29,196 nucleotides of DNA from Sporichthyaceae bacterium (GTDB taxonomy: Bacteria; Actinomycetota; Actinomycetes; JACCUZ01): NCBI GenBank assembly GCA_013698395.1, contig JACCUZ010000121.1:1-29196 (forward strand). Direction: 5' to 3'. The notes beneath the pieces are model-generated. The model saw only the letters and a program-made list of their open reading frames with translations. It had not been told where the DNA came from and searched no databases. Of this stretch, positions 1,840 through 18,703 are shown in pieces; the stretch's first letter is position 1; each line of letters begins with the position of its first letter. The translations under genes and the position numbers were made by a program.

Positions 1840-2847
1840 TCAGGTCACGAGCACCGCACGGGCCTTGATCTCTCCGCGCTTGAGCCGCATCAGTGCTTGG
1901 TTCGCCTCGGCCAGCGGGTAGGGCTCGCAGACCGCCCGCAACTTGCTGGCCGCCGCGAGCTGGAGGACTTCACGCATCTGCTGCCGGCTGCCGAGAATCG
2001 AGCCGACCACCACTTTCTCCTCCGCGAACTGCACCTGACCGATCGTGGCGTGGACTCCGAGGATGATGATGCCTCCGGGCTTCGTCGCCTGGACGGCCTG
2101 GGCGACCACGGCGTCCGAGGGGGCGAAGACGATGGCAGCGTCCACCCCGCCGGACTTGGCCAGTGTCTCACCGGGATCCTCCCGCGACGCGTCGACAGTG
2201 CGCGAGGCGCCCAGCTCCCTCGCCAGTTCGAGATGAGCGGCGCCGCGGCTCACAGCAATGACATCGCCGCCGTATAGCGCGGCGAGCTGGAGAACCACGT
2301 GTCCGACACCACCCACCCCGAACACCGCCACGCTCTTGGTCGGTGAGAGGCTCGCCTTCGCGACGCTTCCGTAGGCAGTGATGCCGGGGCAGAACAATGG
2401 CGCAGCGTCGGCGAAGTCGAGCTCATCAGGCAGCGGGTGAGTGTGACCGGCGGTCGCGAGCATGTACTCGGCATAGCCTCCGTCGACCGTCTCGCCCGTG
2501 ATCTCCTTGGACTGGCAGAGCTGCTCGCGTCCTGACAGGCAGTACTCACATCGACCGCATGTCGACCAGATCGGCTGGACGCCCACCCGGTCGCCGACGT
2601 CGAACCCTGTCACCCCCTCACCGAGGGCTTCCACCGTCCCGACCACCTCGTGCCCGGGGATGATCGGAAAGATGGAGGGAACACCGGCCCAGTGGCCCTC
2701 GACCATGTGCAGGTTCGAGCGGCATACGCCGCACGCCGCGACCTTCACCAAGACCTGGCCGGTGCCAGGCTCGGGGTCGTCCCGCTCGGTGACGAGCAGT
2801 GGTTCGTCCTCGATCTGACCGTAGGCGTCAAGCAGGACAGCCCTCAT
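1840..2847 (-). CDS. Zinc-dependent medium-chain alcohol dehydrogenase (AdhP/CAD-like)
   Basis: Start MRAVLLD at 2847 with GGAGG RBS; the longer ORF start at 3135 overlaps dhaL. Catalytic Zn ligands CGVC, GHE, FCPG; structural Zn CGRCEYCLSGREQLC; GVGGVG. Confidence 0.9.
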   Translation of the reverse strand: MRAVLLDAYGQIEDEPLLVTERDDPEPGTGQVLVKVAACGVCRSNLHMVEGHWAGVPSIFPIIPGHEVVGTVEALGEGVTGFDVGDRVGVQPIWSTCGRCEYCLSGREQLCQSKEITGETVDGGYAEYMLATAGHTHPLPDELDFADAAPLFCPGITAYGSVAKASLSPTKSVAVFGVGGVGHVVLQLAALYGGDVIAVSRGAAHLELARELGASRTVDASREDPGETLAKSGGVDAAIVFAPSDAVVAQAVQATKPGGIIILGVHATIGQVQFAEEKVVVGSILGSRQQMREVLQLAAASKLRAVCEPYPLAEANQALMRLKRGEIKARAVLVT

Positions 2848-2878
2848 GGTGAAGCCTCCAGGGTGTTGTGATGTGAAC

Positions 2879-3508
2879 TCAGGTGTTGGTGCCGCGCGCG
2901 GAAGCGAACAACGCCTCAAGCAGTCGGAGGTATGCGGTTGCCCCGGGATCGGGATGGCCAATGCTGCGCTCGCCGACCCAGGCCGCCCGGCCACGTCTCG
3001 ACTGCAGCGCCGAAGTCTCCTCCACGGCCGTCCGCGCGTCGGCGACCATCCGGGCCAGCATGTCCTCATCGGGAATGTCCGAAGACTCGGCGATGTCAAC
3101 CGTTGGCGCCATGGCGTCGAGGATCGTCTTGTCACCCAGCTGGGCCTTGCCCCGCGTCATGATGCTGTCGAAGGCAGCCCGAAGCATCGCGGCGGCACCC
3201 TGCCTGTCGAGCTCGCCGGAGTCACCGACAGTCTTAGCACCAGCGAGCAAGGCTCCACCCACGAGCGCCGCCATGGTCGAGGGGTTGCCGCCCGCGAAGG
3301 AAGCACCCGACGTCCGGAGCACCTGACCCGGAGTGGGATCCGCATCCAGCGCGGCAAGCTTGGTGCGCACAGCTGCACACCCCTTGCTGACGGTGATGCC
3401 GAGGTCGCCATCGCCTACGGCCGCATCGAGGTCGCGCAGTTCGTCCCGACTCGCCTCCAGAACGCCCAGCGCCTGGTCGACCAGCTGGCGCAGCTCGGTC
3501 CCGTTCAC
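2879..3508 (-). CDS. dhaL: Dihydroxyacetone kinase L subunit (DAK2 domain)
   Basis: DAAVGDGDLG, GKAQLGDKTILDA, GRAAWVGERSIGHPDPGA; 4-nt GTGA overlap with the dhaK stop. Confidence 0.9.
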   Translation of the reverse strand: MNGTELRQLVDQALGVLEASRDELRDLDAAVGDGDLGITVSKGCAAVRTKLAALDADPTPGQVLRTSGASFAGGNPSTMAALVGGALLAGAKTVGDSGELDRQGAAAMLRAAFDSIMTRGKAQLGDKTILDAMAPTVDIAESSDIPDEDMLARMVADARTAVEETSALQSRRGRAAWVGERSIGHPDPGATAYLRLLEALFASARGTNT

Positions 3509-4503
3509 TGCTGGAAGAAGGGTGACCGAGCGGGCGCGTCGAGCAGCTGCGTCAGCTCGTTGTCGAGCCGGATCACCGAGACGGAGGCTCCGGCCATCTC
3601 CAGGCTGGTCGCGAACTCGCCGACGTACGGTCGGTGAATCTCCACACCGATGTCGTCGAGCAGCGCATGCGCGCGGCGGTACAGGACGTAAAGCTCCTCG
3701 AGGGGGGTAGCCCCCAAGCCGTTGACGAGCACGGCAACTCGGTCGCCGGAGACCAGCTCGAGGTCGTCGGTGATAGCGCCGACGAGTCGGTCGGTCACGG
3801 CGTCCGCCGTCTCCAGTGCCCCACGGTGTATGCCAGGTTCGCCGTGAATGCCGATGCCGATCTCCATCTCACCTGCAGCGAGCTCGAACGTCGGCTTTCC
3901 TGCTGCCGGCAGGATGGTTGGCGACAGGCCGACACCCATGGTGCGGGTGTTCGCCACGGCGGCAGCCGCGATCTCGGCGACCCCCTCGAGATCGGCTCCA
4001 CGCTCGGCGGCCGCACCCGCGCACTTATAGGCGAAGAAGATGCCAGCGATGCCGCGCCGCTCCGCGGCTCGGTCGGGAGGCGCCGAGGCAACGTCGTCGG
4101 CCGCTAGAACGGTGCGCGTGGGTATCCCTTCGGCGTCCGCGAGGTCTCCGGCGAGGTCGAAGTTGAGGACATCGCCTCCGTAGTTTCCGTAGAGATAGAG
4201 CACTCCGGCGCCGCCACTGGACGCCTGTGTCGCCGACAGCATCTGCTCGGCGGACGGCGAGGAGAACACGTTGCCGATCGCCACTCCGGTACACAGTCCC
4301 GATCCGACGTAGCCCAGGAAGAGCGGCAGATGCCCCGAGCCGCCCCCGGTCACGATGCCCACCTTGCCGTCTAGGGGTGCATCCGCCCTGACAAGCGCCC
4401 GGTTGTCCGGTGCGGCTGACCTCAGCAGGTGATGATGCGCCAGCAGCAACCCGTCGAGCACCTCGTCGACGAACGCGTCTGGGTCGTTGATGAGCTTCTT
4501 CAC
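3505..4503 (-). CDS. dhaK: Dihydroxyacetone kinase K subunit (DAK1 domain), variant subfamily
   Basis: GTG start (KKLINDP) behind AAGGAG RBS; GGGSGHLP, GNVFSSPS, NYGGD, EIGIGIHGEPG, NGLGATPLEEL, TSLEMAGAS. Confidence 0.88.
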   Translation of the reverse strand: MKKLINDPDAFVDEVLDGLLLAHHHLLRSAAPDNRALVRADAPLDGKVGIVTGGGSGHLPLFLGYVGSGLCTGVAIGNVFSSPSAEQMLSATQASSGGAGVLYLYGNYGGDVLNFDLAGDLADAEGIPTRTVLAADDVASAPPDRAAERRGIAGIFFAYKCAGAAAERGADLEGVAEIAAAAVANTRTMGVGLSPTILPAAGKPTFELAAGEMEIGIGIHGEPGIHRGALETADAVTDRLVGAITDDLELVSGDRVAVLVNGLGATPLEELYVLYRRAHALLDDIGVEIHRPYVGEFATSLEMAGASVSVIRLDNELTQLLDAPARSPFFQQ

Positions 4504-4534
4504 CGGGTCTCCTTCGTCTCGGACGTCTCCTGCC

Positions 4535-5668
4535 TTACTGTTCATGCTCCCGCTCACGCGGTGGGACGGGCGGCCCCAGTGCTGCCGGCAACTGCTCTGA
4601 CGGAGCCCCGTCGACATCTCGACCGCTCCGCATCCGTAGTGCCGAGCGGAGGTCGTATCGCTGTGTGATGGTGCTCAGGCCCAGGACGCCGATGAGAATG
4701 ACCCCCTGCGCGATCTGGTAGAGGAACGAGTTGAAACCCACCATGTTGAACCCGCTCGCGACCATCTGGAGGACGAAGGCCGACAGCACGACACCGGTCA
4801 CCGTGCCGGAGCCGCCCATGGGGTTCACGCCACCAAGAACCACGATCACGATGGCGAGCAGGACGTAGGACGCTCCGTAGTCTGCGTTGGCGCTCGCGGA
4901 ACGAGCGGCGATGAGGATGCCCGCGAGCGACGACAAGAAGGCACTCATGAGATAGGTCCGCATCAAGACGCGGTCGTTGTTCAGGCCGCTGTACCTGGCG
5001 GCCGTCGGGTTGGCACCGACGAGCTTGATCCGCAGCCCCATGCCGGTCCGGTTCACGAAGACCGCCGTACCGACCGCCGCTAACAGCAGGACAACCACCG
5101 GCGCTGGCACGCCAGCGACGAAGCCCGTGCCAATGTTCAGGAAGCTCTCGGGCATGCCATAGATCGCCCGACCACCGGTCCAGACGATCGCCACCCCGTT
5201 CAGCAGCTGGAGCGTGCCGAGCGTCGCCAGGATGGGGGTTATGCGCAACCGCGTGATCAACAGCCCGTTGAGCGCCCCGCAAGCCGTGCCGGCAGCCACC
5301 CCGACGGCTATGAACCCCACCGTCATCACCACCGAGCTGCTCCCGGACGCCGTGCCCGACCCAGCGGACATGAACAGCTGGGCGGTGACGATCGCGGCGA
5401 TGTTCGCGATCGAGACGATGGACAGATCGATCCCGCCGGTCAGCATGGTCAGCGCGATGGCGAGGCTAAGCAGGCCGATCTCGGCGACCTGGAATCCCAT
5501 CGACTGAAAATTGATGATCGAGAAGAAGTTCCCGCTCGCCAGCGAAAAGATGACAAGCACCACCAACGCGATCGAAGCCAGGCGCACCACGCCGCGCTCG
5601 ACCAACATGCGCTGCACGAGCCGCGCAGTGGGATCGCTGACACCGGTGCGACCGGCTCCGTCGCTCAC
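4535..5668 (-). CDS. Sugar ABC transporter permease (CUT2/RbsC family)
   Basis: GGIDLSI, TPILATLGT, GANPTAARYSGL, VVLGGVNPMGGSG; multiple hydrophobic segments. Confidence 0.92.
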   Translation of the reverse strand: MSDGAGRTGVSDPTARLVQRMLVERGVVRLASIALVVLVIFSLASGNFFSIINFQSMGFQVAEIGLLSLAIALTMLTGGIDLSIVSIANIAAIVTAQLFMSAGSGTASGSSSVVMTVGFIAVGVAAGTACGALNGLLITRLRITPILATLGTLQLLNGVAIVWTGGRAIYGMPESFLNIGTGFVAGVPAPVVVLLLAAVGTAVFVNRTGMGLRIKLVGANPTAARYSGLNNDRVLMRTYLMSAFLSSLAGILIAARSASANADYGASYVLLAIVIVVLGGVNPMGGSGTVTGVVLSAFVLQMVASGFNMVGFNSFLYQIAQGVILIGVLGLSTITQRYDLRSALRMRSGRDVDGAPSEQLPAALGPPVPPREREHEQ

Positions 5669-6711
5669 GCCGGTGCCCCCTCTGCGACGAGGTCCGCCGA
5701 CGTGCGTCGAGACCGAGCGCTGAGAGCCTGCGCCCCGACTCCGACGATCAGCAGCAACCCGACCGCAGCGCGCTGCCAGGATCCCGGCACGCCCAGGAGG
5801 ATCAGCGAGTTGCGGATCAGGGAGATCAGCACGACGCCCAGCACGGTGCCGCTCACGGACCCCTTGCCACCGAAGATGGACGCACCACCTAGGACGACCG
5901 CCGCGATCACGTCGAGCTCGCCACCAACGAGTTCGTAGGGATTAGCCAGGCGTACGCGGGTGACGTGTATCAACCCGGCCACGCCGGCGAGCAGGCCGGC
6001 GAACAGGTAGATGAAGAACTGGATGCCGACCACCGGAAAGCCCGCCCGCCGCGCGGACTCGGCGTCCCCGCCCACGGCGTAGATACCTCTCCCGACCATC
6101 GTGTACCGCAACAACAGGCTCACGAGCACGCAGATGAGGACAGCTGGGACGATGAGCACGCTCAGTCGCGTGGAGGACGTCCCGGTCGCGGTCACGAGAT
6201 AGTTGGTCGACAGCTTGTCGAGCCCCTCTGGATAGTCGGGGATCACCTTGGAGCCGACATAGGCCAGCATCGCGCCACGGATGATTCCTTGAGTCCCGAG
6301 CGTGACGATGAGAGTCGGAAGGTGCAGGCCGGCGATCGCCGCGGCGTTGAGGACGCCGAGGGCCACGCCGATCACAGCGGCGAGCACGAAGCCCACTGGT
6401 GCGCTCGACGCCCCGAAGCCGGTCTCGTTGGTCAGGACGATCACCGAATAGCCGCAAAAAATTCCGATCGCCATGAAGGAGACGTCGATCCCGCCAGAGA
6501 TGATCACGATGAGAACGCCCATCGCGAAGATCACATTGGTCATGGAGTTCGAGGCCACGTTGAGCATGGTCCGAACACTCCAGAACGACGGCTCGACCAC
6601 GCCCACGCCTACGCACAGCACCAGGATGGTCAGCGCGAGGATGCCCTCGTTATTGCTACCGCGCAGCCGGGACAGCCACGGGCGCTGCCCGGCGTCAGAG
6701 GCTGTCGTCAT
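5665..6711 (-). CDS. Sugar ABC transporter permease (CUT2/RbsC family)
   Basis: SGGIDVSF, LPTLIVTLGT, GRGIYAVGGDAESARRAG, ELDVIAAVVLGGASIFGGKG. Confidence 0.92.
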   Translation of the reverse strand: MTTASDAGQRPWLSRLRGSNNEGILALTILVLCVGVGVVEPSFWSVRTMLNVASNSMTNVIFAMGVLIVIISGGIDVSFMAIGIFCGYSVIVLTNETGFGASSAPVGFVLAAVIGVALGVLNAAAIAGLHLPTLIVTLGTQGIIRGAMLAYVGSKVIPDYPEGLDKLSTNYLVTATGTSSTRLSVLIVPAVLICVLVSLLLRYTMVGRGIYAVGGDAESARRAGFPVVGIQFFIYLFAGLLAGVAGLIHVTRVRLANPYELVGGELDVIAAVVLGGASIFGGKGSVSGTVLGVVLISLIRNSLILLGVPGSWQRAAVGLLLIVGVGAQALSARSRRTSADLVAEGAPA

Positions 6712-8204
6712 GCTGCGAGCTCCCTTAGCACAGTCTCTTCGGTGAGCTGTTCACCACTCAGCTCTCCGACAAGACGGCCCTGCCGCACGACCAGGACACG
6801 GTGACAGATGGCTACGAGCTCCGGCACGTCGTCAGAGATGATGACGATTCCCATGCCGTCACGGCTCTTGGCCTGGAGCAGTTCGAGTATCTCGTGCTTG
6901 GAGCCGATGTCGACGCCGACGGTGGGGCTATTGAGGATGAGGACGTGCGGGTCACGGGCAAGCCACTTGCCCAGCGCCACCCGTTGCTGGTTGCCGCCGG
7001 ACAGGCTCCGGACCGGAGCGTCGGCTGAGGACATCTTGATCCGCAGGCCCGTCGCGGTCTCGTCCACCGTCCGCTGCGCAAGCCCAGGGCGCACCAGGTC
7101 GAGCTTGCCGACCAACCGGTCCAGGCTGCCGGCGATGATGTTCCGGCCGATGGACTGGTCGAGGAAGACTCCCTGGGTGAGGCGGTCCCCCGGGACATAG
7201 CCGATGCCTGCCTTGATCGCGTCCTGCGGTGAGCGCAGGCGCACCGGCCGCCCGTCGACACTAACGGATCCGGCGTCCGCCGGAGTCACCCCGAAGAGTG
7301 CCTCGGCTATCTCGCTGCGCCCCGATCCGAGCAGCCCGGTGACGCCGACGACCTCACCTGGTTGCACGCTGAAAGTCACGTCCTTGAACCGACCTTGCAG
7401 GCCGAGTCCCTCGACCTCGAGGAGAGGTTGCTCACTCGAGCGCACGGACTCCGCCGGTCTGGCGTCGGTGACTGCTCGTCCCGTCATCGCCTTGACGATG
7501 GCTGCCCTGTCGAACCGCGTGACGTCACCGGTTACCGCCACGACACCGTTGCGGAGGACGGTGATCCGCTCGGAGATGCGCAGCACCTCCTCGAGCTTGT
7601 GGCTCACGAACACCAGACCGACTCCGCGTTCCTTGAGCGACTCGACAACCCTGAACAGGGCCTCCACCTCCCGCCAGGTGAGGGCTGTCGTCGGCTCGTC
7701 CATGAAGATGATCTGCGCATCACGGGCGAGTGCCCGGCTGATCGCGATGAGCTGCCGGTCGGCGACGGGGAGGTCCTCGACCCGGGCATCAAGGTCGATG
7801 CGAACGCCGATTCGCTCAAGCGCCTCGGCCGCGATACGGCGCACCACGCGCGGCCGCACAACCTTGCGCCGGTCCGCCACCTGAGCAGCGAGCCCGATGT
7901 TCTCGGCCACCGTGAGGTTGGGAAAGAGCGAGAAGTCCTGGAAGATCACCTCGATGCCCAGGCCGATCGCTTGGCGCGGAGTCAGGTGGTGGAACAACTC
8001 GCCGCCGATGCCGATCGTGCCGGCGTCGGGGGCTACGACACCGGCGATGACCTTGATGAGCGTCGACTTGCCAGACCCGTTCTCACCGGCCAAGCAGTGA
8101 ACTTCGCCCGGTCGGACGTCGAAGGAGACGTCAGCGAGCGCGACGACCCCCCCGAAGTGCTTCGAGATGCCGGTCGCCGCGAGCAGAGGCTCAGCTGGAG
8201 CCAT
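6708..8204 (-). CDS. Sugar ABC transporter ATP-binding protein (two-domain RbsA/MglA type)
   Basis: Walker A GENGSGKST; IFMDEPT; LSGGNQQRV; degenerate second Walker B (LILNSPT); AGGAGAGG RBS. Confidence 0.95.
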   Translation of the reverse strand: MAPAEPLLAATGISKHFGGVVALADVSFDVRPGEVHCLAGENGSGKSTLIKVIAGVVAPDAGTIGIGGELFHHLTPRQAIGLGIEVIFQDFSLFPNLTVAENIGLAAQVADRRKVVRPRVVRRIAAEALERIGVRIDLDARVEDLPVADRQLIAISRALARDAQIIFMDEPTTALTWREVEALFRVVESLKERGVGLVFVSHKLEEVLRISERITVLRNGVVAVTGDVTRFDRAAIVKAMTGRAVTDARPAESVRSSEQPLLEVEGLGLQGRFKDVTFSVQPGEVVGVTGLLGSGRSEIAEALFGVTPADAGSVSVDGRPVRLRSPQDAIKAGIGYVPGDRLTQGVFLDQSIGRNIIAGSLDRLVGKLDLVRPGLAQRTVDETATGLRIKMSSADAPVRSLSGGNQQRVALGKWLARDPHVLILNSPTVGVDIGSKHEILELLQAKSRDGMGIVIISDDVPELVAICHRVLVVRQGRLVGELSGEQLTEETVLRELAA

Positions 8205-8287: not shown

Positions 8288-9322
8288 TCAGAAGGGGTAG
8301 TCCTTGGCGTTGGACTTGTCCACGTCGATCCACGCGTTTCCCGCGTAGGCCGCCGGAGTTCCCTTGATCCGCTTGAGGTCCTCGTAACCCGTCAACTCCA
8401 GATCCAGACCCTCCTTGATCTTCTCGCCCTGTGCCAGCATGACAGCAAGTTTCTGCTGCGCTTTGCCCGCGAGCGCTGGGTCCCAGAAGAAGATCTTGTC
8501 GATCGAGCCATCGTCGAGGAACTTGCCCGCGATCGACGGAATGCTGGTGCCCATCACGCAGGTCTTGTCCTGCAGGCCGGCCTCCTGGATGGCGCGCCCA
8601 ATTCCCGCAACATCTGTTGCGGCGCTGCCCTCGAACCCCTTGATGTCGGGGTACTTGGCGAGCAGCTCCTTGGTCTTCTGGTAGGCCACGTTCGCGTCCT
8701 CCAGCCCTTCGATCGGGTCGCCGATCCGCTCGATGTCCGCGTACTTGGACTCTGCCTGGTTGAACGCTCCTTCGACCCACTCCATGTGGCTCTTCGCGGT
8801 CAGGTGTCCGACGAACGCGACGTACTTGCCCTCACCGCCCATGCACTCGGAGAGGTTGTCCATGATGTGCGCGCCGTAGGCGTCGTTGTCGAACGCCTCG
8901 ATATCGACATCAGTGTTCTTCTGGTTGCTCGCCTCATGGGTGACGACGAAGATGCCTGCGTTGCGGGCCTGCTTCAGCACACCCTCAAGCGCCTCGGGTG
9001 CGTTCGGCACGACGGTGATCGCCGTTGGCTTTTGCGCAATCAGATCCTGGATGATCTTGACCTGCTTCTCGGGGCTGGCGTCGTCAGCTCCCGTCATCGA
9101 GGACTGGGTGCCCTCCTCCTGGCCGAACTCGTCGATGCCGGTCTCCATGCGGTCGAACCACCCGACACCGAGCAGCTTGACGACCGTGACGATCTTCATG
9201 TCCTCGGGCTTGAGGTCCTTGGAGCCCGCTGTGGTGCTGCTACCGCCGTCCCCGGACGAGCATGCGGCCAGCACGAGCGAGAGCACCAGTGCGGCTGCGC
9301 CCGCCATCCGTCCTTTGATCAT
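8288..9322 (-). CDS. Sugar ABC transporter substrate-binding lipoprotein (periplasmic binding protein type 1, LsrB/RhaS-like)
   Basis: Lipobox LAAC; VVKLLGVGWFDRMETG; QVKIIQDLIAQ; WDPALAG; GGGGAG RBS. Confidence 0.9.
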   Translation of the reverse strand: MIKGRMAGAAALVLSLVLAACSSGDGGSSTTAGSKDLKPEDMKIVTVVKLLGVGWFDRMETGIDEFGQEEGTQSSMTGADDASPEKQVKIIQDLIAQKPTAITVVPNAPEALEGVLKQARNAGIFVVTHEASNQKNTDVDIEAFDNDAYGAHIMDNLSECMGGEGKYVAFVGHLTAKSHMEWVEGAFNQAESKYADIERIGDPIEGLEDANVAYQKTKELLAKYPDIKGFEGSAATDVAGIGRAIQEAGLQDKTCVMGTSIPSIAGKFLDDGSIDKIFFWDPALAGKAQQKLAVMLAQGEKIKEGLDLELTGYEDLKRIKGTPAAYAGNAWIDVDKSNAKDYPF

Positions 9323-9442: not shown

Positions 9443-10276
9443 TCATGCTGCCGCCTTCGTCGGCTTCCACAGGCCGGTGGCCGCGGCCGCGGCGACCAGT
9501 CGCTCGACGCGGGCCGGGTCCACCTCGTTCCAGGTGTCACCGGCGCGCTTGAGCGACGTACCCACGACACAACCGTCAGCCACACTCAGCATCTCCTCGA
9601 CGGTGTCCGGTCGCACCCCGGTGTTCGCGATAACCGCTGTCTGAGTACCCAGCGCTTGCTTCGCCTCGCGCAGCTGTGCCACGTCAACACCGGTGCCGGT
9701 GACGGAACCAGAGATGCAGACGGCGTCGGCCAGCGAGCTGAACACAGCAGAGCGCGCGGTGAGCGCGATGCCCCTGGGCGCCAGTGGCGCCGCGAACTCG
9801 GCGGTCACGTTGTAGAAGAGCTTGAGACGGTCCGCCCCGATCTGGCGCCGGTAGGCCAACGTGGACGCCGGGTCGGTGTTCCAGACCCCGAAGTCACCGG
9901 CGTATGCGCCGCTGAACACCTCGCGCACGAAGGACGCCCCCACGGCATGCGCAAGGCCGATCGCCGCTCGCGGATCCCACAAGATGTCGACGCCGAAGGG
10001 GATGGCGAGCTGCCGTTTGACTTCAGTGATCACAGCCGCCATGACGGCGACGACTTCGGGGCCGGTGGTCGTTCGGTACGGCCTGTCGCCCTCGTTGCAG
10101 AACATAACTGCGTCGATGCCGCTGCGCGCGAGGACCGCCACATCCCTGCCCACCCACTCGAGAAGTGCGTCGACCCCCCCGCTGGCGTCGTACAGCGGCT
10201 GACCCGGCATCGGCGGGAAGTGTGCCATCGCGATGATTGCCTTCGGCTTGCCGAAGATCTCATCGATGGCCGTCAT
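9443..10276 (-). CDS. sgcQ: BtpA/SgcQ family phosphate-binding TIM-barrel protein
   Basis: KAIIAMAH, DAVMFCNE, PFGVDILWDP, FVREVFSGAYAGDFGVWNT, ANTGV and DGCVVGTSLK closely match the E. coli SgcQ sequence as I recall it. Confidence 0.85.
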   Translation of the reverse strand: MTAIDEIFGKPKAIIAMAHFPPMPGQPLYDASGGVDALLEWVGRDVAVLARSGIDAVMFCNEGDRPYRTTTGPEVVAVMAAVITEVKRQLAIPFGVDILWDPRAAIGLAHAVGASFVREVFSGAYAGDFGVWNTDPASTLAYRRQIGADRLKLFYNVTAEFAAPLAPRGIALTARSAVFSSLADAVCISGSVTGTGVDVAQLREAKQALGTQTAVIANTGVRPDTVEEMLSVADGCVVGTSLKRAGDTWNEVDPARVERLVAAAAATGLWKPTKAAA

Positions 10277-11409
10277 GCCAGTCCTCCACTCGTGATCTGC
10301 ACGGCGCCGCGCGCCAGGTCGACACTGGGCATCCGCGGGACAAGGCTCGCGAGGAGCTCGACCGACGCCGCGACGTCGGAGAGCTGCGCAGTCTCCACCG
10401 GGGAATGTGTGTAGCGCACCGGGATACCGAGTCCCACGGCGGCAATTCCCTGCGCGGTCGCCATGGTGACGAAGGCGGCGTCCGTGATGACACCGACCAT
10501 CGCGTCGTGCTGCACGGGCATCGATGCAGCGTCCGCAGCTGCCTCTACGGCACGCACCAGACCCGGGTGCGGGATCAACCCGCCGAGCGTGCCCCGGCCG
10601 TGGAAGCTGAGCCGCGACAGCGTTGGGCCACCGCCTAGACGGACCGAACCCTGGCCGACAAGGTCAGGAGTGTCAGTGGCGGGGGCGACGTCGAGGTTGA
10701 CGACCATGTCAGGCTGGAACTTCGCAGCGAGTGTCAGGGTCCCGCGGACATTGAACTCCTCCTGGGTCGTGAACGCGACGACCACGGGACTCGAGGGCGG
10801 TTCAGCGACGAGCCGATCGACGTATGCCAGCAAGGCCGCCACCCCGACGCGATCGTCGAGCGACTTCCCGGCGAACCGTCCGCCACCGAGGTCGTCCCAG
10901 GTGGGCTGATAGGTGACGGGGTCGCCGACCCGGATGCCGGCCGTGTGAGCCTCGTGATCGCTGGCGGCGCCGATGTCGAGATACAGGTCGGTCGCGGGGC
11001 GTGCGACGTACTTTTCCTCCGACGGGGTCAAGTGGTGGCTCTTGACACCGACGACCGCAGGGACGTCCGCGCGGGAGGTGTGGACGAGAAGTCGCAGGCC
11101 GGGCAGCACCCGCTCTGGCATTCCGCCGAGGCGGTGCACGCGCAACATCCCGTCCGAATCGACCCCCCGGACCACCAGCCCCAGCTCATCGAGGTGGGCG
11201 GTGACCATCACCGCGGCACCATCGGAGGGTCCGAATCCCACCGCGATCTGTCCGAGCCGGTCCACGAACGGCTCCAGGCCGCCGCAGCGCAGATGGTCGA
11301 CCACGGCGGCAGTCAGGCGGTCCTCGTTCCCCGCAGGCGCCGCTACGCCGGACAGTCGGCGGCACAACCCCAGAAGATCGGCTGTCGCATCGCCAAGCTG
11401 GGAATGCAC
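10273..11409 (-). CDS. sgcX: M42-family dinuclear metallohydrolase of the SgcX subfamily
   Basis: All metal/catalytic motifs present: AHLDE, LDDRVG, QEEFNVRG, LDV, RYTHSP. SgcX-type signatures DTPDL, HGRGTLGGLI and GVITD. Confidence 0.82.
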   Translation of the reverse strand: MHSQLGDATADLLGLCRRLSGVAAPAGNEDRLTAAVVDHLRCGGLEPFVDRLGQIAVGFGPSDGAAVMVTAHLDELGLVVRGVDSDGMLRVHRLGGMPERVLPGLRLLVHTSRADVPAVVGVKSHHLTPSEEKYVARPATDLYLDIGAASDHEAHTAGIRVGDPVTYQPTWDDLGGGRFAGKSLDDRVGVAALLAYVDRLVAEPPSSPVVVAFTTQEEFNVRGTLTLAAKFQPDMVVNLDVAPATDTPDLVGQGSVRLGGGPTLSRLSFHGRGTLGGLIPHPGLVRAVEAAADAASMPVQHDAMVGVITDAAFVTMATAQGIAAVGLGIPVRYTHSPVETAQLSDVAASVELLASLVPRMPSVDLARGAVQITSGGLA

Positions 11410-11432: not shown

Positions 11433-11448
11433 TGCGCGATATCGCGCA
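11433..11448. promoter_or_regulatory. Perfect 16-bp palindrome, candidate operator for the leftward sgcX operon
   Basis: TGCGCGATATCGCGCA, 24 nt upstream of the sgcX start and just downstream of the candidate promoter. Confidence 0.5.
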
Positions 11449-11493: not shown

Positions 11494-11550
11494 GGCGCCG
11501 TTACCGGTCCGTTAACAATCTTCCCTGATGCACGAATCCGCGCACCTGGC

Positions 11551-11556
11551 TAGCAT
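11551..11556 (+). promoter_or_regulatory. Candidate -10 (TAGCAT) of the DeoR-FGGY operon
   Basis: TANNNT 21 nt before the ATG at 11578, followed by an AGGAAGGGG RBS; no clear -35. Confidence 0.45.
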
Positions 11557-11577
11557 CGCGCGGCAGGAAGGGGTTGG

Positions 11578-12396
11578 ATGCGCACTGGGCAACGGCGGCG
11601 CGAAATTCTTCGCCGGCTGCTGTTCACCGGCTACGTGGAGGCAAAGGCTCTCGCCGACAGCCTCGACGTCGACTCGTCCACGATCCGGCGCGACCTGGAC
11701 GCCCTCGCCCGGGACGGTCAGCTGCAGCGCACGCACGGCGGCGCCCGTCTGCTCGACGGAGCGGTCGACGTCCCCTATGCGCTCAAGCAGCAGCAGCGGA
11801 CCGAGGCGAAGAAGGCGATCGCTGCCGCCGCGGGCGAGGCTGTCGTCGACGGAGACAGCATCCTCATCGACAGCGGCTCTACCACGTACCATCTCGCAGT
11901 TGCACTCCGGGGCCGCCGTGACCTGACCGTCGTCACCAACGACCTCCGCATCGCCCTGCTTGTTGCGGATTACCCCGCGATCCGTCTCCTGGTGACTGGC
12001 GGCGAACTGCTGAACTCGACGTACACGCTGGTCGGCGACCGGGCGGTCGCCTTCGTCTCGGATCTCCGGGTCGACTGGACATTCCTCGGCGCCGACGCCA
12101 TCGCCCTCGACACCGGCATCACCAACACGAATGCGGCGGAGATCCCGCTGAAGCGCTCGATGATCGCGGCCGGCCGCACGCCCGTGGTGCTGGCGGACAG
12201 CACCAAGCTCGGTCGGCACGCCCTGGTTCGGGTCGCACAGCTGGAGGAGGTCGACCAGATCATCACCGACGACGAGCTGAACGACGAGGACGCGGCGGCG
12301 TACGGCTCCCGATTGCGTCGCGTCGTGTCGGCACATCTGGAAGACCAGCGAGCCGCACCGGACAACACTGATGCCCGAGTGCGGGAACGGGTCTGA
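11578..12396 (+). CDS. DeoR/GlpR-family transcriptional regulator
   Basis: HTH VDSSTIRRDLDAL, RTHGGA, DSGSTT, TVVTNDL, FLGADAI, LADSTKLG. Confidence 0.95.
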   Translation: MRTGQRRREILRRLLFTGYVEAKALADSLDVDSSTIRRDLDALARDGQLQRTHGGARLLDGAVDVPYALKQQQRTEAKKAIAAAAGEAVVDGDSILIDSGSTTYHLAVALRGRRDLTVVTNDLRIALLVADYPAIRLLVTGGELLNSTYTLVGDRAVAFVSDLRVDWTFLGADAIALDTGITNTNAAEIPLKRSMIAAGRTPVVLADSTKLGRHALVRVAQLEEVDQIITDDELNDEDAAAYGSRLRRVVSAHLEDQRAAPDNTDARVRERV

Positions 12397-13898
12397 TGTT
12401 CCTGGGAGTGGACATCGGCACCGCGAGCAGCAAGGCCGTGGCCGTCGCCGCCGATGGGACCCTCGTCGCATCCGCGATTCGTCCACATCTGACCACCACG
12501 CCGCATCCGGGATGGTTCGAGCACGACGCCGAGGATGTCTGGTGGTCCGACTTCCGAGAACTGACCCACGAGGTGCTCTCGACGGTTCCCGGTCACGAGG
12601 TCACGTGCGTGGGGGTCAGCGGCATCGGTCCCAGCACGCTGCTCACCGACGTCGGCGGCCAGCCGCTGCGGGCCGCCATCCTCTATGGGATCGACACCCG
12701 TGCTGAGCGCGAAATCGAGGAGCTGACCGAGACTCTCGGCGCGGGTCGGTTGCTCGAGGTCAATGGGAACCGGCTCACCTCGCAGGCGGTGGGACCAAAG
12801 TTCCTGTGGGTCGCCCGGCATGAACCCGAGGTGTGGGAGCGGGCGCGGCGGTGGTACGGCGCGTCCAGCTGGCTCGTGCAGCGCCTGACCGGCGAGTACG
12901 TGCTCGACCACTACTCGGCGAGCACGTCCGATCCGCTCTACGATCTCGGCAGGAGCGACTGGTGGGCGGACGGGTGGGCGGCGTCCGCCCCTGGCATCGA
13001 GCGCCCCCGCCTCGCCTGGCCCGGTGACGTCGTGGGTGAGGTGCATACGGCCGCGGCCGAAGCGTGCGGCATCGCCGCCGGCACACCCGTCGTCGCCGGG
13101 ACCATCGACGCGCTCGCCGAGGCGCACAGCGTCGGGTCCGACGGGATCGGTGACACGATGGTCATGTACGGCTCGACTCTGTTCCTCATCCAGACAGTGG
13201 CACGGCCAGCAGTCCACGGCGGCTTGTGGGCAGCCAGCGGGCGAACCCCCAACACCAACTCCGTCGCCGCCGGCATGGCCACCTCCGGCCTCGTCACAAC
13301 GTGGTTCGCAGAGGTCACCGGTCAATCCCTCGGCGATCTCACCGCACAGGCGGCAGAGGTGCCGGCCGGCAGCGATGGACTGGTCCTGCTGCCGTACTTC
13401 GCAGGTGAGCGCACGCCTCTGTTCGACCCGAGAGCCCGTGGATGCTGGCTGGGTCTCACGCTCGGGCACACCAGGGCACACCTTTACCGGTCGGCACTCG
13501 AGGGCGTGGCCTACGGCGTGCGCCACAATCTCGATGCGATGGCCGAGGCCGGCGCGCCCCCACGACGGCTCGTTGCGGTCGGTGGAGGCACGCGGGGGAA
13601 CCTCTGGACGCACATCGTCAGCGATGTGACGCAGTTGCCACAGGATCTCCCCACCACCACGATCGGCGCATCGTACGGCGACGCACGCCTAGCCGCCGAG
13701 GCGGTCGGCGTCGATACGCGGGCGTGGAACCCCGTCGCGCAACGCATCGAACCGGACCCGTCCCCTGCCGGTCTGTACGACGAGCTGTACGCCGTATTTC
13801 GTCACACGTATCCGGCGATTCGCGACGAGATGCACCGGCTCGCGGCGGCAGTCACGATGCGAGGGTCAGCACCGCGCAAGCGGTCTCCTCATCCGTGA
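12396..13898 (+). CDS. FGGY-family carbohydrate kinase (xylulokinase-like subgroup)
   Basis: LGVDIGTASSK, PGWFEHD, AILYGIDTRA, GTIDA, LPYFAGERTP, RSALEGVAYG, VGGG; TGATG coupling to the DeoR gene. Confidence 0.92.
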   Translation: MFLGVDIGTASSKAVAVAADGTLVASAIRPHLTTTPHPGWFEHDAEDVWWSDFRELTHEVLSTVPGHEVTCVGVSGIGPSTLLTDVGGQPLRAAILYGIDTRAEREIEELTETLGAGRLLEVNGNRLTSQAVGPKFLWVARHEPEVWERARRWYGASSWLVQRLTGEYVLDHYSASTSDPLYDLGRSDWWADGWAASAPGIERPRLAWPGDVVGEVHTAAAEACGIAAGTPVVAGTIDALAEAHSVGSDGIGDTMVMYGSTLFLIQTVARPAVHGGLWAASGRTPNTNSVAAGMATSGLVTTWFAEVTGQSLGDLTAQAAEVPAGSDGLVLLPYFAGERTPLFDPRARGCWLGLTLGHTRAHLYRSALEGVAYGVRHNLDAMAEAGAPPRRLVAVGGGTRGNLWTHIVSDVTQLPQDLPTTTIGASYGDARLAAEAVGVDTRAWNPVAQRIEPDPSPAGLYDELYAVFRHTYPAIRDEMHRLAAAVTMRGSAPRKRSPHP

Positions 13899-14838
13899 CC
13901 AGCACGTTCACCAAGCGACAACGCAGGGCCCCAAGGACGGCCTCCGCCTTGCGCCGACCGGCCGCAACCCCGATCACTCGGGGGATCCGGCTTAGCGGTG
14001 CAGCGGCGATGGCGATGACCCGTCGCTGGAACTCCGACTCGACAAGCCGGCCTTCCGCGGTGAACAGATGTCCGCACACGTCCCCGACGGCCCCGGTACG
14101 CCGGATGTCGGCGAGCCCCCTTCGGCTCAGATACCCGGCCCGCAGCAGAGACGACACCTCGGGTATCAGTGCGCCGATGCCCACAAGCGCCACGTCGGCT
14201 TGGCCGGCCGCCGCCAGCGTGTCCCGGACACCTCGCTGCCGCAACAGTGCGCTCGCCACCTCCTCGCTGTCGACAACGAGCGGCGCGTTCAGGTAGCGGC
14301 ATCGGCCGCCCAGCAGGTCGGCCAGCCGGCGGGCTAGCTCGGTGCCATCGACCTGTGGGTCGCGACTGCACGCTCCACCGAGCATCTGGACCACTTCAAC
14401 GGTTCGGGGGATCCGAGGTTCCAGGGCATCGGTGACAGCCCGCAAGCTCGTGCCCCACGAGATGGCGAGCACATCATCATCTGTCAGGACTCCGTCGACG
14501 TACCGCGCAGCCAAGGCGCCCACGCGACCCAGTAGCGCCTCCGCGGGACCGTGAGCCGCGAGAACGAGCGCATCGCGCAGCCCGAACGTCGAGACGAGCG
14601 CCCGCTGAACGTCCTCCGCGAGCGCCAACGGGCGACGGATCCGGATTTCGACGATCCCAGTGTCGAGTGCCTCGCTAAGCATCCGGGAGACGGTCGACCG
14701 GGAGACTTTCATCCGCCTGGCGATCTCCTGCTGGTCGAGCCTGGACTGGTAGTACAACGCCGCGGCATCGGCGACCAGGTCCTCGCGGCGGCCCTCCGCG
14801 CTGCCCACGGACCGCGGGGCGGCCCGGGCCTCTGCCAC
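13852..14838 (-). CDS. SorC/LsrR/CggR-family sugar-binding transcriptional regulator
   Basis: AALYYQSRLDQQEIARRMKVSRSTVSRML HTH; ISWGTSL; VALVGIG; GAVGDVCGH; IGVAAGRRKAEA; LVTDE. GTG start 2 nt after the lipoyl gene stop; the ORF-track start at 15027 overlaps the lipoyl gene. Confidence 0.92.
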   Translation of the reverse strand: MAEARAAPRSVGSAEGRREDLVADAAALYYQSRLDQQEIARRMKVSRSTVSRMLSEALDTGIVEIRIRRPLALAEDVQRALVSTFGLRDALVLAAHGPAEALLGRVGALAARYVDGVLTDDDVLAISWGTSLRAVTDALEPRIPRTVEVVQMLGGACSRDPQVDGTELARRLADLLGGRCRYLNAPLVVDSEEVASALLRQRGVRDTLAAAGQADVALVGIGALIPEVSSLLRAGYLSRRGLADIRRTGAVGDVCGHLFTAEGRLVESEFQRRVIAIAAAPLSRIPRVIGVAAGRRKAEAVLGALRCRLVNVLVTDEETACAVLTLAS

Positions 14839-14840
14839 TG

Positions 14841-15089
14841 CTAGGCCTGCCCGCTCTCGTCGATGTAGGCGATGGTTTCGCCCTCGACGGCCGATTGACC
14901 TTCCGCGCAGACGGTCCTGGTAAGGGTGCCGGTGTACAGCGACTCGACAGACATGTCGACCTTGTCCGTCGCTACGTCGAACAGCGGCTCGCCCTTCACG
15001 ACGCGGTCGCCGGGCGCCTTGTGCCAAAGGGCCAGCACAAGGTCGCCCGCCGCGTCCCCCATCGGGGGCATCACCACGGCAACTTCCAT
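14841..15089 (-). CDS. Stand-alone lipoyl (biotin/lipoyl attachment) domain protein, 82 aa
   Basis: VVMPPMG...WHKAPGDRVVKGEPLFDVATDKVDMSVES...G...V..G..IAYI. Lipoyl-Lys in TDKV; GAGGAAGG RBS; stops with no peripheral-subunit-binding or acyltransferase domain. Confidence 0.9.
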   Translation of the reverse strand: MEVAVVMPPMGDAAGDLVLALWHKAPGDRVVKGEPLFDVATDKVDMSVESLYTGTLTRTVCAEGQSAVEGETIAYIDESGQA

Positions 15090-15098
15090 TGGCCTTCC

Positions 15099-18635: not shown

Positions 18636-18660
18636 GCTGGGCTTGACTAGGTCAGTAGAT

Positions 18661-18699
18661 CTTGCACACTTGTGCAAGGCACCGGGAATCTGTGCACAG
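18661..18699. promoter_or_regulatory. Paired TGCACA/TGTGCA dyads, candidate operator for the SorC-family regulator
   Basis: CTTGCACA-CT-TGTGCAAG (18661-18678) and CTGTGCACAG (18690-18699); both perfect dyads, between the promoter and the kinase start. Confidence 0.65.
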
Positions 18700-18703
18700 T
18701 TCC

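What the first reader, a model, noticed from the sequence alone, without database searches (positions are those of the whole stretch)
9443..11409. Orphan SgcX-SgcQ pair transplanted from a PTS operon to an ABC + kinase locus
Seen: adjacent, translationally coupled sgcX-like and sgcQ-like genes with SgcX-subfamily signatures (QEEFNVRG, DTPDL, HGRGTLGGLI). Established: in E. coli these genes lie in sgcXBCQAER with a galactitol-family PTS, an epimerase-like SgcE and the DeoR regulator SgcR, and their reactions are unknown. Here the PTS is replaced by an ABC importer plus a divergently encoded FGGY kinase, while a DeoR regulator is retained. Inference: the conserved core acts on a phosphorylated sugar derivative, so SgcX is not a general aminopeptidase or cellulase. 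It more likely hydrolyses an amide/ester on a sugar conjugate, and the phosphate-binding SgcQ barrel is an isomerase, epimerase or lyase.
Basis: partly seen in the sequence, partly recalled or inferred. Interest (0 to 1): 0.8.

Follow-up and report, generated by a model that had tools for sequence, protein, structure and literature searches.

The report
Kinase-linked SgcX–SgcQ sugar module
Two overlapping genes, one for a peptidase-like metal enzyme (SgcX) and one for a phosphate-binding barrel protein (SgcQ), head a sugar-breakdown gene set that is shared across several bacterial phyla, so this is not a stray transplant, though its chemistry is still unknown.

Summary
At 10273-11409(-) lies an M42-family gene and at 9443-10276(-) a BtpA/SgcQ-family gene, joined by an ATGA overlap. 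They are 35% and 44% identical to E. coli SgcX and SgcQ. They head an operon with a CUT2 sugar ABC importer, DhaK/DhaL and a Zn-ADH, divergent from a DeoR-regulator/FGGY-kinase pair.

The "orphan, transplanted" reading is not supported. The same gene content recurs with shuffled order in Actinomycetota, Bacillota and Alphaproteobacteria.

- All 36 BtpA-linked M42 proteins form one clade with E. coli SgcX, apart from FrvX and YpdE. An invariant FHGRGTL insert marks the clade.
- In 401 Bacillota genomes, all 9 with an SgcX-clade gene also carry BtpA.
- The reverse does not hold. Most SgcQ genes sit with an FGGY kinase and a DeoR regulator but no M42. SgcQ plus kinase is the core, and SgcX is an accessory.
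- In four loci an unrelated M29 "aminopeptidase" is present instead of SgcX, in two of them in the same slot beside the same kinase orthogroup. This favours a real aminopeptidase-type hydrolysis.
- The binding protein keeps four of the six D-ribulose contacts of AauA, pointing to a small ketose-like substrate.

The chemistry remains unproven. This scan has noted the module before in at least 9 other genomes.

The parts
10273..11409 (-). SgcX-clade M42 dinuclear metallohydrolase (378 aa, GTG start)
   Evidence: PF05343 at E 1.8e-68. 35% identity to E. coli SgcX. Falls inside the BtpA-linked M42 clade, support 99/98. Metal and catalytic residues H72, D185, E217, E218 and H335 are kept, and the clade-specific insert F269-L275 is present.
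9443..10276 (-). SgcQ (BtpA-family phosphate-binding TIM barrel, 277 aa). Its start overlaps the sgcX stop (ATGA).
   Evidence: PF03437 at E 7.1e-73 and TIGR00259 at 243 bits. 44% identity to E. coli SgcQ. AF2 model has pLDDT 97 and TM 0.94 to the E. coli SgcQ model.
8288..9322 (-). CUT2 sugar-binding protein of the ABC importer
   Evidence: Peripla_BP_4 at E 2.2e-56. Nearest solved structures are 5BRA (44% identity) and the D-ribulose binder AauA, 9I1M (33%). K49, W55, E130 and H179 align with AauA sugar contacts and are invariant in the orthogroup.
6708..8204 (-). Double-domain sugar ABC ATPase
   Evidence: Two ABC_tran domains. Below the cut-off for every named NCBIfam equivalog.
5665..6711 (-). 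ABC permease 1
   Evidence: BPD_transp_2.
4535..5668 (-). ABC permease 2
   Evidence: BPD_transp_2.
3505..4617 (-). DhaK subunit. This is the longest ORF; the family match begins near residue 39, so the true start is probably near 4503.
   Evidence: Dak1 at E 8.6e-116. DhaK was found only in peptidase-type SgcQ modules: 7 of 33 against 0 of 64.
2879..3508 (-). DhaL subunit
   Evidence: Dak2 at E 6.1e-38.
1840..3135 (-). Zn-dependent alcohol/polyol dehydrogenase. This is the longest ORF; the domain begins at residue 125, so the real start is probably near the dhaL stop.
   Evidence: ADH_N + ADH_zinc_N. Also follows DhaL in L012.
11578..12396 (+). DeoR-family repressor, divergent from sgcX
   Evidence: DeoRC at E 2.5e-46 plus HTH_DeoR. 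29% identity to E. coli SgcR. A DeoR gene lies next to SgcQ in roughly half of the loci examined.
12396..13898 (+). FGGY sugar kinase (xylulokinase-like, not XylB). Its start overlaps the deoR stop by 1 nt.
   Evidence: FGGY_N/C. TIGR01312 at 267 bits, below the cut-off of 380. Same orthogroup as kinases beside M42 or M29 in other phyla (328-675 bits, against 89-305 bits for SDR-type modules).
11433..11448 (.). Perfect 16-bp palindrome in the divergent promoter region; candidate DeoR operator
   Evidence: the repeat finder I5. A related copy lies at 11529-11544.
11529..11544 (.). Second, degenerate copy of the palindrome, with the same CCTG tail
   Evidence: the repeat finder D1/I1.

Best explanation
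The two genes are the SgcX/SgcQ enzyme pair of a conserved, biochemically unsolved sugar-catabolic module. This is the ABC-importer-plus-kinase counterpart of the cryptic E. coli sgc operon.

Shown by comparison:
- SgcQ travels with a sugar kinase (or a PTS), often with a DeoR repressor, and is the core enzyme of the module.
- SgcX is a specialised M42 clade that occurs only together with SgcQ.
- An unrelated M29 aminopeptidase-family protein can replace SgcX in the same slot.

Inferred working model:
1. A small ketose-like sugar (D-ribulose-like in shape), or a simple derivative of it, is imported by the CUT2 ABC system.
2. The FGGY kinase phosphorylates it. The product probably also releases the DeoR repressor from the palindromes between the two operons.
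3. SgcX performs an aminopeptidase-type metal-dependent hydrolysis, removing an amide- or ester-linked group from the sugar or its phosphate.
4. SgcQ, a phosphate-binding (beta/alpha)8 barrel, isomerises, epimerises or cleaves the sugar phosphate.
5. DhaKL and the Zn-ADH deal with an unphosphorylated triose-level or aldehyde product.
For: Identity of the pair.

Conserved module: the same gene content (DeoR, Q, X, FGGY, CUT2 ABC, with or without DhaKL) recurs in different orders.
- Actinomycetota: L004, L006-L008, L011, L012, L103.
- Bacillota: L139, L142, L143, L145, L150.
- Alphaproteobacteria: L035, L059, L078.

SgcX clade:
- All 36 BtpA-linked M42 proteins form one clade, support 99/98, and all 13 unlinked ones fall outside.
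- The FHGRGTL insert is invariant in 36 of 36 and absent in 13 of 13, while the metal ligands are kept.

Dependence of SgcX on SgcQ: 9 of 9 Bacillota genomes with an SgcX-clade gene carry BtpA, against a background of 30 of 401. In 8 of the 9 the two genes lie on the same contig.

SgcQ as core:
- An FGGY gene lies next to BtpA in about three quarters of the 80 loci. M42 is present in 22 of them and a PTS in none.
- M42 linkage is scattered over the SgcQ tree, needing at least 6 changes.

M29 in the SgcX slot:
- L056 has the same gene order as L139, with M29 where L139 has M42. L065 has M29-FGGY-Q, and L013 and L058 carry M29 nearby.
- These loci share the kinase orthogroup of the M42 loci.

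SgcQ fold: the model has pLDDT 97 and a Gly-rich beta7/beta8 phosphate-binding pattern. The nearest solved folds are phosphate-binding barrels.

Substrate size: four of the six D-ribulose contacts of AauA are invariant in the binding-protein orthogroup.

DhaK is restricted to peptidase-type modules.
Against: - No biochemical data exist for any SgcX or SgcQ protein.
- The E. coli sgc deletion has no phenotype on 190 carbon sources (PMC13343008).
- A binding protein of the monosaccharide type, with D-ribulose-like contacts, fits poorly with a bulky aminoacyl conjugate.
- The order of the kinase, SgcX and SgcQ steps is unknown.
- SgcQ has no close solved relative, so its reaction class is a guess.
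- Neighbour calls rest on tblastn with a limited query set and on draft genomes. Related genomes are not independent.
- The split DhaK/DhaL has no DhaM partner in the window.
Confidence: 0.6

Rival explanations
1. SgcX is not a hydrolase here. It uses its two-metal centre to isomerise or epimerise a sugar or sugar phosphate. It would fill the missing isomerase step of an isomerase-kinase-aldolase/epimerase route like the rhamnose, fucose or L-xylulose pathways, with SgcQ as the aldolase or epimerase.
For: - The binding protein is of the monosaccharide type and keeps D-ribulose contacts.
- The module has a kinase but no recognisable isomerase or aldolase.
- M42/M29 and SDR genes tend to exclude each other (SDR in 6 of 33 against 34 of 64), as if each prepares the kinase substrate from a different precursor.
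- Clade-specific basic residues (R93, H125, K133, H270, R272) could hold a phosphate.
Against: - Two unrelated aminopeptidase families (M42 and M29) fill the same slot. What they share is exopeptidase-type hydrolysis.
- The hydrolytic general-base Glu (E217) is kept.
- No M42 or M29 protein is known to be an isomerase (my knowledge of the families).
Confidence: 0.15
2. SgcX acts as a phosphoesterase on a phosphorylated intermediate. It would be the counterpart of the IMPase-family or calcineurin-type metallophosphoesterase genes found in the M42-less SgcQ modules.
For: - IMPase or Metallophos genes occur in 22 of 64 peptidase-less modules but only 1 of 33 peptidase-type modules. This suggests one interchangeable metal-hydrolase slot.
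- The SgcX clade carries extra basic residues.
Against: - The two module types differ in kinase orthogroup and transporter type, so their slots need not be equivalent.
- A kinase and a phosphatase acting on one route wastes ATP.
- Neither M42 nor M29 proteins are known phosphatases.
Confidence: 0.08
3. One reading: an orphan SgcX-SgcQ pair recently moved out of a PTS operon into an unrelated ABC + kinase locus.
For: In the M42 tree the three PTS-linked SgcX proteins branch below a single FGGY-linked clade. One old switch from PTS to kinase context is therefore possible.
Against: - The window's arrangement is shared with close relatives gene for gene.
- The same gene content occurs in three phyla.
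- Among even samples of 401 genomes per phylum, SgcX-linked loci are ABC/FGGY in 8 cases and PTS in 2.
- SgcQ with FGGY and DeoR is widespread without any PTS.
- Only 3 PTS-type sequences were sampled and the root is not inferred.
Confidence: 0.07
4. SgcX is an ordinary housekeeping TET-like aminopeptidase that merely lies next to sugar genes.
For: The M42 fold and all metal ligands are intact. It is the only M42 gene found in this 81%-complete genome.
Against: - It lies in a separate clade with an invariant insert.
- It always co-occurs with BtpA in the sample tested.
- The linkage survives three different gene orders and includes an ATGA overlap.
- Complete genomes with the module have no other M42 (G001, G004).
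- No NCBIfam equivalog model reaches its cut-off.
Confidence: 0.04

Closest known systems
E. coli K-12 sgcXBCQAER operon (KpLE2 island; function unknown)
   Same: - An SgcX-clade M42 protein: 35% identity, same clade, same FHGRGTL insert.
- A SgcQ protein: 44% identity, model TM 0.94.
- A DeoR-family regulator.
- A step that phosphorylates the substrate.
   Different: - E. coli uses a galactitol-type PTS (SgcA/B/C) and has the Rpe-like SgcE. Neither is in the window.
- Here a CUT2 ABC importer, an FGGY kinase, DhaK/DhaL and a Zn-ADH are present instead.
- sgcX and sgcQ overlap here, whereas sgcB and sgcC separate them in E. coli.
- The regulators share only 29% identity.
Lsr autoinducer-2 uptake and processing system (lsrRK / lsrACDBFG)
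   Same: - The layout is the same: a repressor and an FGGY kinase transcribed divergently from a CUT2 ABC importer plus two processing enzymes that act on the kinase product.
- The binding protein is a distant LsrB relative.
   Different: - The regulator of this pair is DeoR-type, not SorC-type LsrR.
- LsrF and LsrG are unrelated to SgcQ and SgcX.
- LsrB, LsrK and LsrR models score far below their cut-offs (86 against 384, 126 against 528, 163 against 486).
- This is a resemblance in how it works, not membership.
D-ribulose systems Aau (EHEC) and Rbl (Citrobacter rodentium), Nat Commun 2025, PMC12307932
   Same: - The binding protein is 33% identical to AauA and keeps four of its six D-ribulose contacts.
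- Rbl also couples a CUT2 ABC importer to an FGGY kinase.
   Different: - Those loci have no SgcQ or SgcX.
- RblK belongs to another FGGY subfamily.
- D-ribulose itself would need no enzyme after the kinase, so the substrate here is probably a related but different ketose.
M42 aminopeptidases outside the SgcX clade (E. coli FrvX and YpdE; TET-type entries such as MJ0555 and PhTET)
   Same: Same family (PF05343), same dinuclear metal ligands and same catalytic Glu-Glu pair. Sequence similarity to solved M42 structures reaches E 3e-51.
   Different: - A separate clade: at least 210 bits within the clade against at most 161 bits outside it.
- A 7-residue invariant insert and about ten clade-specific residues.
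- Obligate genomic company of SgcQ.
- Peptidase activity and dodecamer formation were not tested.

Membership tests
Peptidase M42 (PF05343) | Profile match above the gathering score | tested here: met
   231 bits against a cut-off of 23.2.
Peptidase M42 (PF05343) | Dinuclear metal ligands (His, Asp, Glu, Asp/Glu, His) and the catalytic Glu | tested here: met
   H72, D185, E217, E218 and H335 are conserved in all 49 aligned M42 proteins. The Asp of NLDVAP aligns with the fourth ligand.
SgcX subfamily of M42 (as defined here by E. coli SgcX) | Groups with E. coli SgcX to the exclusion of FrvX, YpdE and other M42 proteins | tested here: met
   Clade of 36, support 99/98. Bit-score gap of 210 against 161.
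SgcX subfamily of M42 (as defined here by E. coli SgcX) | FHGRGTL insert after the GGP strand | tested here: met
   Residues 269-275. Invariant in 36 of 36 clade members and absent in 13 of 13 others.
SgcX subfamily of M42 (as defined here by E. coli SgcX) | A BtpA/SgcQ gene in the same locus | tested here: met
   ATGA overlap in the window. 9 of 9 sampled Bacillota genomes with an SgcX-clade gene carry BtpA.
Named M42 equivalogs (YpdE NF007421, FrvX NF007367, PepA TIGR03107, archaeal lysyl aminopeptidase NF040822) | Score above the curated equivalog cut-off | tested here: not met
   148.6 against 412, 107.8 against 569, 102 against 470 and 127 against 700. E. coli SgcX fails them too, while YpdE and FrvX pass their own models.
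TET aminopeptidase | Tetrahedral dodecamer with broad N-terminal exopeptidase activity | not testable with these tools
   Needs purified protein. Sequence places the gene outside the clade holding FrvX-like proteins.
BtpA/SgcQ family (PF03437 / TIGR00259) | Profile match above the cut-off over the full length | tested here: met
   245.6 bits against 30, and 243.2 against 153.4.
BtpA/SgcQ family (PF03437 / TIGR00259) | Same predicted fold as E. coli SgcQ | tested here: met
   Model with pLDDT 97. TM 0.94 and rmsd 1.0 to the E. coli SgcQ model.
Photosystem I biogenesis protein BtpA (NF045918) | Equivalog score | tested here: not met
   148.7 bits against a cut-off of 400.
E. coli-type sgc operon | Galactitol-family PTS EIIA/B/C genes in the operon | tested here: not met
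   No tblastn hit of SgcA, SgcB or SgcC in the window.
E. coli-type sgc operon | Rpe-like SgcE | tested here: not met
   No tblastn hit in the window.
E. coli-type sgc operon | DeoR-family regulator beside the genes | tested here: met
   11578-12396(+), DeoRC + HTH_DeoR.
Xylulokinase XylB (TIGR01312) | Equivalog score for the FGGY kinase | tested here: not met
   267 bits against a cut-off of 380.
Lsr system | LsrB, LsrK and LsrR equivalog scores; LsrF/LsrG present | tested here: not met
   All are far below their cut-offs. No LsrF or LsrG family was seen among the window's genes.

The most novel reading that the evidence does not exclude
SgcQ would be the first BtpA-family protein with an assigned enzymatic role. 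The family spans all three domains of life, including the cyanobacterial photosystem I factor BtpA and a C. elegans mitochondrial protein. In this reading SgcQ is a new kind of sugar-phosphate lyase or isomerase acting on a D-ribulose-like ketose phosphate. The SgcX (or M29) slot would be an aminopeptidase-type hydrolase that removes an aminoacyl or similar group from that sugar. Together they would reveal a so far unrecognised class of natural aminoacyl- or amide-substituted ketoses used as nutrients by soil and gut bacteria.
Probability: 0.22. Interest if true: 0.85.

Novelty: new variant of a known kind. Interest (0 to 1): 0.6.

Why it matters
SgcX and SgcQ have been unexplained since the E. 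coli genome was sequenced. A 2026 transcriptome atlas still lists the operon's substrate as unknown, and the deletion has no phenotype on 190 carbon sources. The BtpA family has no solved structure and no known reaction.

The comparative picture here makes the question testable:
- The PTS-free module exists in cultured, tractable bacteria: Pseudonocardia acaciae, Spongiactinospora, Rhizobium albus and Stappia stellulata.
- It contains a soluble binding protein and a kinase that can be screened against ketose libraries.
- The relation between the two genes is now defined: SgcQ is the core and SgcX is accessory.
- A sequence signature identifies SgcX proteins.
- Swaps between M42 and M29 constrain the chemistry.

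Tried and rejected
- The first genome scan, with a 60-sequence SgcQ alignment, failed because the alignment was too diverse. A 14-sequence alignment worked.
- A sequence search of the PDB with SgcQ found nothing even at E 1.
- Foldseek and VIA-align gave only generic phosphate-binding barrels (HisF, HPS, GGGPS, KDPGal aldolase, ThiE, Rpe; Z about 18, TM 0.5-0.6) with no nearest family. No reaction class could be drawn from the fold.
- Literature searches for SgcQ, SgcX, BtpA+M42 and BtpA+FGGY found no functional study.
- The Thermotoga sugar-regulon paper does not mention BtpA.
- The 324-aa ORF at 11512-12486(-) has no family match. It is the antisense shadow of the DeoR gene and was rejected as a gene.
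- I first took the SorC-family gene at 13852-15027 for the 'retained DeoR regulator'. It is a different family and belongs to the neighbouring operon.
- My own idea that SgcX is a sugar isomerase was weakened when M29 proteins turned up in its slot.
- The title of PDB entry 5BRA, the nearest binding-protein structure, came back truncated, so its ligand could not be read.
- No model coordinates are available to scripts, so I could not test whether the FHGRGTL insert lines the active site.
- Complex prediction was not run. I make no claim that SgcX and SgcQ bind each other, and the M29 replacement argues against a conserved interface.
Full report
**Observation.** The window is contig C63 of a 2.78-Mb, 81%-complete, roughly 68% G+C metagenome-assembled genome of the Actinomycetota. 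ORF 10273-11409(-) encodes a 378-aa M42-family protein (PF05343, E 1.8e-68). ORF 9443-10276(-) encodes a 277-aa BtpA/SgcQ-family protein (PF03437, E 7.1e-73; TIGR00259 at 243 bits against a cut-off of 153). The sgcX stop and the sgcQ start share ATGA. The proteins are 35% (E 4e-69) and 44% (E 4e-79) identical to E. coli SgcX and SgcQ. The E. coli gene order sgcX-B-C-Q-A-E-R was verified in NC_000913.

**Gene map.** Downstream on the minus strand lie:
- a CUT2 sugar-binding protein (8288-9322);
- a double ABC ATPase (6708-8204);
- two permeases (5665-6711 and 4535-5668);
- DhaK (3505-4617), DhaL (2879-3508) and a Zn-ADH (1840-3135).

Divergently, a true DeoR-family regulator (11578-12396, +) overlaps an FGGY kinase gene (12396-13898, +) by one base. 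The 324-aa minus-strand ORF over the regulator has no family match and is its antisense shadow. A second unit follows on the minus strand: FGGY kinase 2, E1 alpha, E1 beta, a small ORF that another first-reader note (e1-5330004) reads as a lipoyl domain, and a SorC regulator (13852-18713). It belongs to other first-reader notes. No PTS or SgcE homologue is in the window.

**Is the pair an orphan?** No.
- Close homologues in Pseudonocardia acaciae and Spongiactinospora have exactly the layout [FGGY, DeoR] divergent from [M42, BtpA, binding protein, ATPase, two permeases].
- I fetched 80 genome loci of SgcQ relatives (43-71% identity) from Actinomycetota, Chloroflexota, Bacillota, Thermotogota, Pseudomonadota, Acidobacteriota, Bathyarchaeia and others. 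An FGGY kinase lies beside BtpA in about three quarters of them. A DeoR gene is present in at least 41, an M42 gene in 22, and a PTS in none.
- I also drew even samples of 401 genomes per phylum. BtpA is rare: 21 of 401 Actinomycetota, 14 of 401 Pseudomonadota and 30 of 401 Bacillota.
- In the regions around those hits (census), SgcX-clade genes accompany BtpA in one further Actinomycetota locus (L103), two Pseudomonadota loci (L113, L116) and seven Bacillota loci (L138, L139, L142-L145, L150).
- L103 comes from genome G125, which is unpublished. This count and its row in the trees rest on that genome.
- Of these ten loci, two are of the PTS type (L113 is the E. coli type; L144) and eight are of the ABC/FGGY type.
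- The full gene content of the window (DeoR, Q, X, FGGY, CUT2 ABC, DhaK, DhaL) recurs in different orders in Bacillota (L145, L150, L142/L143), Alphaproteobacteria (L035, L078) and Actinomycetota (L012, L011, L103).

**SgcX is a distinct, SgcQ-dependent clade.**
- A maximum-likelihood tree of 49 M42 proteins puts all 36 BtpA-linked ones, including E. coli SgcX, in one clade (99/98). All 13 unlinked ones, including E. coli FrvX and YpdE, fall outside.
- The 33 FGGY-linked members form a clade (99/93), with the three PTS-linked ones branching below it.
- Universal M42 residues, including H72, D185, E217, E218 and H335, are kept.
- The clade is marked by a seven-residue insert, F269-H-G-R-G-T-L275, invariant in 36 of 36 and absent in 13 of 13. 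It also has R93, H125, T128, K133, Y134, Y167, F219 and D249.
- No NCBIfam equivalog covers the clade. The YpdE and FrvX models recognise their own proteins but neither E. coli SgcX nor the window's protein.
- As a reverse test I searched the window's SgcX against the 401 Bacillota genomes. This gave nine hits of at least 254 bits, with the next hit at 182 bits. All nine genomes carry BtpA, and in eight the two genes lie on the same contig within about 11 kb.
- Complete genomes with the module have no other M42 gene.

**SgcQ is the core and SgcX the accessory.**
- In a tree of 152 BtpA proteins, a large SgcQ-like clade of 125 is mostly kinase-linked. M42 linkage is scattered over it, needing at least six changes even on well-supported branches.
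- A second group of 27 pairs instead with PfkB kinases or has no recognised partner.
- BtpA proteins therefore keep company with a sugar kinase or a PTS, which supports action on a phosphorylated sugar (inference).

**A second peptidase family in the same slot.**
- A lead from an earlier scan note (e1-3162625) was tested here.
- In L056 (Anaerolineales) the gene between the second permease and the FGGY kinase is an M29-family protein (PF02073, E 8.5e-58). The order DeoR, binding protein, ATPase, permease, permease, M29, FGGY, Q is identical to that of L139 (Bacillota), which has M42 there.
- L065 has M29-FGGY-Q, and L013 and L058 carry M29 nearby.
- Kinases beside M42 or M29 belong to one orthogroup (328-675 bits to the window's kinase). 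Kinases of M42-less, SDR-containing modules score 89-305 bits.
- The binding proteins of these loci are also orthologous, at 44-79% identity.
- Two unrelated dinuclear aminopeptidase families filling one slot argues that the step really is an aminopeptidase-type hydrolysis.

**Other correlations among kinase- or PTS-linked loci.**

| Neighbour gene | With M42 or M29 | Without |
|---|---|---|
| DhaK | 7 of 33 | 0 of 64 |
| IMPase or metallophosphoesterase | 1 of 33 | 22 of 64 |
| SDR | 6 of 33 | 34 of 64 |
| CUT2 ATPase | 15 of 33 | 4 of 64 |

There are thus at least two module types around SgcQ. In L142 and L143 a single sgcQ gene is flanked by both.

**SgcQ structure.**
- The AlphaFold model (pLDDT 97) is a (beta/alpha)8 barrel.
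- Nearly invariant residues include H19 (end of strand 1), N61 (after strand 2), R118 (strand 4), G190, G220 and G239, which follow strands 6-8, and K243 in the segment after strand 8. The last three are the usual phosphate-binding pattern.
- No solved structure matches by sequence.
- Fold searches give only generic phosphate-binding barrels, with no nearest family.
- In Swiss-Prot models the relatives are E. coli SgcQ, Synechocystis BtpA, uncharacterised archaeal proteins and a C. elegans mitochondrial protein.
- There is no strand-borne invariant Lys, so a class I aldolase mechanism is unlikely (inference).

**Substrate clue.**
- The binding protein is 44% identical to PDB 5BRA (Ochrobactrum anthropi, ligand not readable) and 33% identical to AauA (9I1M).
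- AauA binds D-ribulose with a Kd of 2 uM through K37, W43, E118, H167, E196 and S223 (PMC12307932).
- The first four correspond to window K49, W55, E130 and H179, which are invariant in the binding-protein orthogroup. E196 aligns with a Glu, and S223 is Ala.
- The next relatives are rhamnose and AI-2 binders. The imported compound is therefore probably a small, furanose-forming ketose or a close derivative.

**Literature.**
- No functional study of SgcQ or SgcX was found.
- A 2026 atlas reports that sgcABCEQX is induced 16-25-fold on nitrogen-containing slow substrates and in starvation. The deletion has no defect on 190 carbon sources, and the substrate remains unknown (PMC13343008).

**Working model.** Only the gene associations are shown. 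Every step below is inferred.
1. The ABC system imports the substrate.
2. The FGGY kinase phosphorylates it.
3. The kinase product relieves DeoR repression at the palindrome TGCGCGAT|ATCGCGCA (11433-11448) and its degenerate copy (11529-11544).
4. SgcX hydrolyses an amide- or ester-linked substituent.
5. SgcQ isomerises, epimerises or cleaves the sugar phosphate.
6. DhaKL and the Zn-ADH handle a free triose or aldehyde, much as triokinase follows aldolase B in fructose breakdown.

Rival readings are that SgcX is an isomerase, a phosphoesterase or a bystander peptidase. They are weighed in the rival section.

**Caveats.**
- Neighbour calls used tblastn with a limited query set, and Pfam only on cluster representatives.
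- The 80-locus set is biased towards the window's SgcQ.
- Related genomes are not independent.
- Only three PTS-type SgcX sequences were sampled, and the trees are unrooted.
- The genome is an incomplete MAG.

**Novelty.** This scan has noted the module in at least nine other genomes, and one follow-up called it the ABC-and-kinase version of the sgc operon. In the published literature the module, the SgcX clade signature and the M42/M29 swap are, as far as I could find, undescribed. I class it as a new variant of a known but unsolved kind.

Noticed in passing
window 11433-11448 and 11529-11544: A perfect 16-bp palindrome (TGCGCGAT|ATCGCGCA) and a degenerate second copy lie 96 bp apart, both followed by CCTG, in the 168-bp divergent region between sgcX and deoR. 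They are candidate DeoR operators.
   Followed up: partly
L056:6938-8005, L013:15896-16978, L065:985-2049, L058:12818-13885: M29-family (PF02073) 'aminopeptidase' genes lie in SgcQ/FGGY modules in place of SgcX. In L056 the gene order is otherwise identical to that of the M42-bearing L139.
   Followed up: yes
L114, L117, L119, L120, L123, L102, L156, L157: A more distant BtpA subfamily (about 30% identity to the window's SgcQ) pairs with a PfkB-family kinase and a CUT2 ABC importer instead of an FGGY kinase.
   Followed up: partly
L142:500-15700 and L143:1200-15300: A single sgcQ gene is flanked on one side by the M42/FGGY/DhaKL/CUT2 gene set and on the other by an FGGY/SDR/CUT1/IMPase gene set. 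Each side has its own kinase and DeoR gene, as if one SgcQ serves two routes.
   Followed up: no
L028, L036, L083 (two BtpA genes about 5 kb apart): Acidobacteriota and Dormibacterota loci carry two BtpA paralogues with an FGGY kinase, a calcineurin-type metallophosphoesterase and an AP_endonuc_2 TIM-barrel gene between them.
   Followed up: no
window 13852-18713 and L012:1613-6353: The neighbouring unit (second FGGY kinase, E1 alpha, E1 beta, SorC regulator) is also adjacent to the SgcX/SgcQ module in an uncultured Actinomycetota genome (L012). The two units may therefore work together. Earlier scan notes report split transketolases beside the pair in other genomes.
   Followed up: partly
window 11512-12486 (-): This 324-aa ORF with no family match lies antisense to the DeoR gene. 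It is one of many long shadow ORFs in this 68% G+C DNA and is not a gene.
   Followed up: yes
Alphaproteobacterial loci L047, L062, L064, L068, L069, L075, L084, L116: These loci have a second SgcX-containing layout: Q-X-FGGY with an aldo/keto reductase, an Amidohydro_2 protein and a CUT1 ABC importer, often also PfkB and AP_endonuc_2 genes, but no DhaKL.
   Followed up: partly
Swiss-Prot model hits of the SgcQ model: The BtpA fold family includes a C. elegans mitochondrial protein (F13E9.13) and uncharacterised proteins of Pyrococcus, Thermococcus, Methanocaldococcus and Archaeoglobus. None has an assigned reaction.
   Followed up: no
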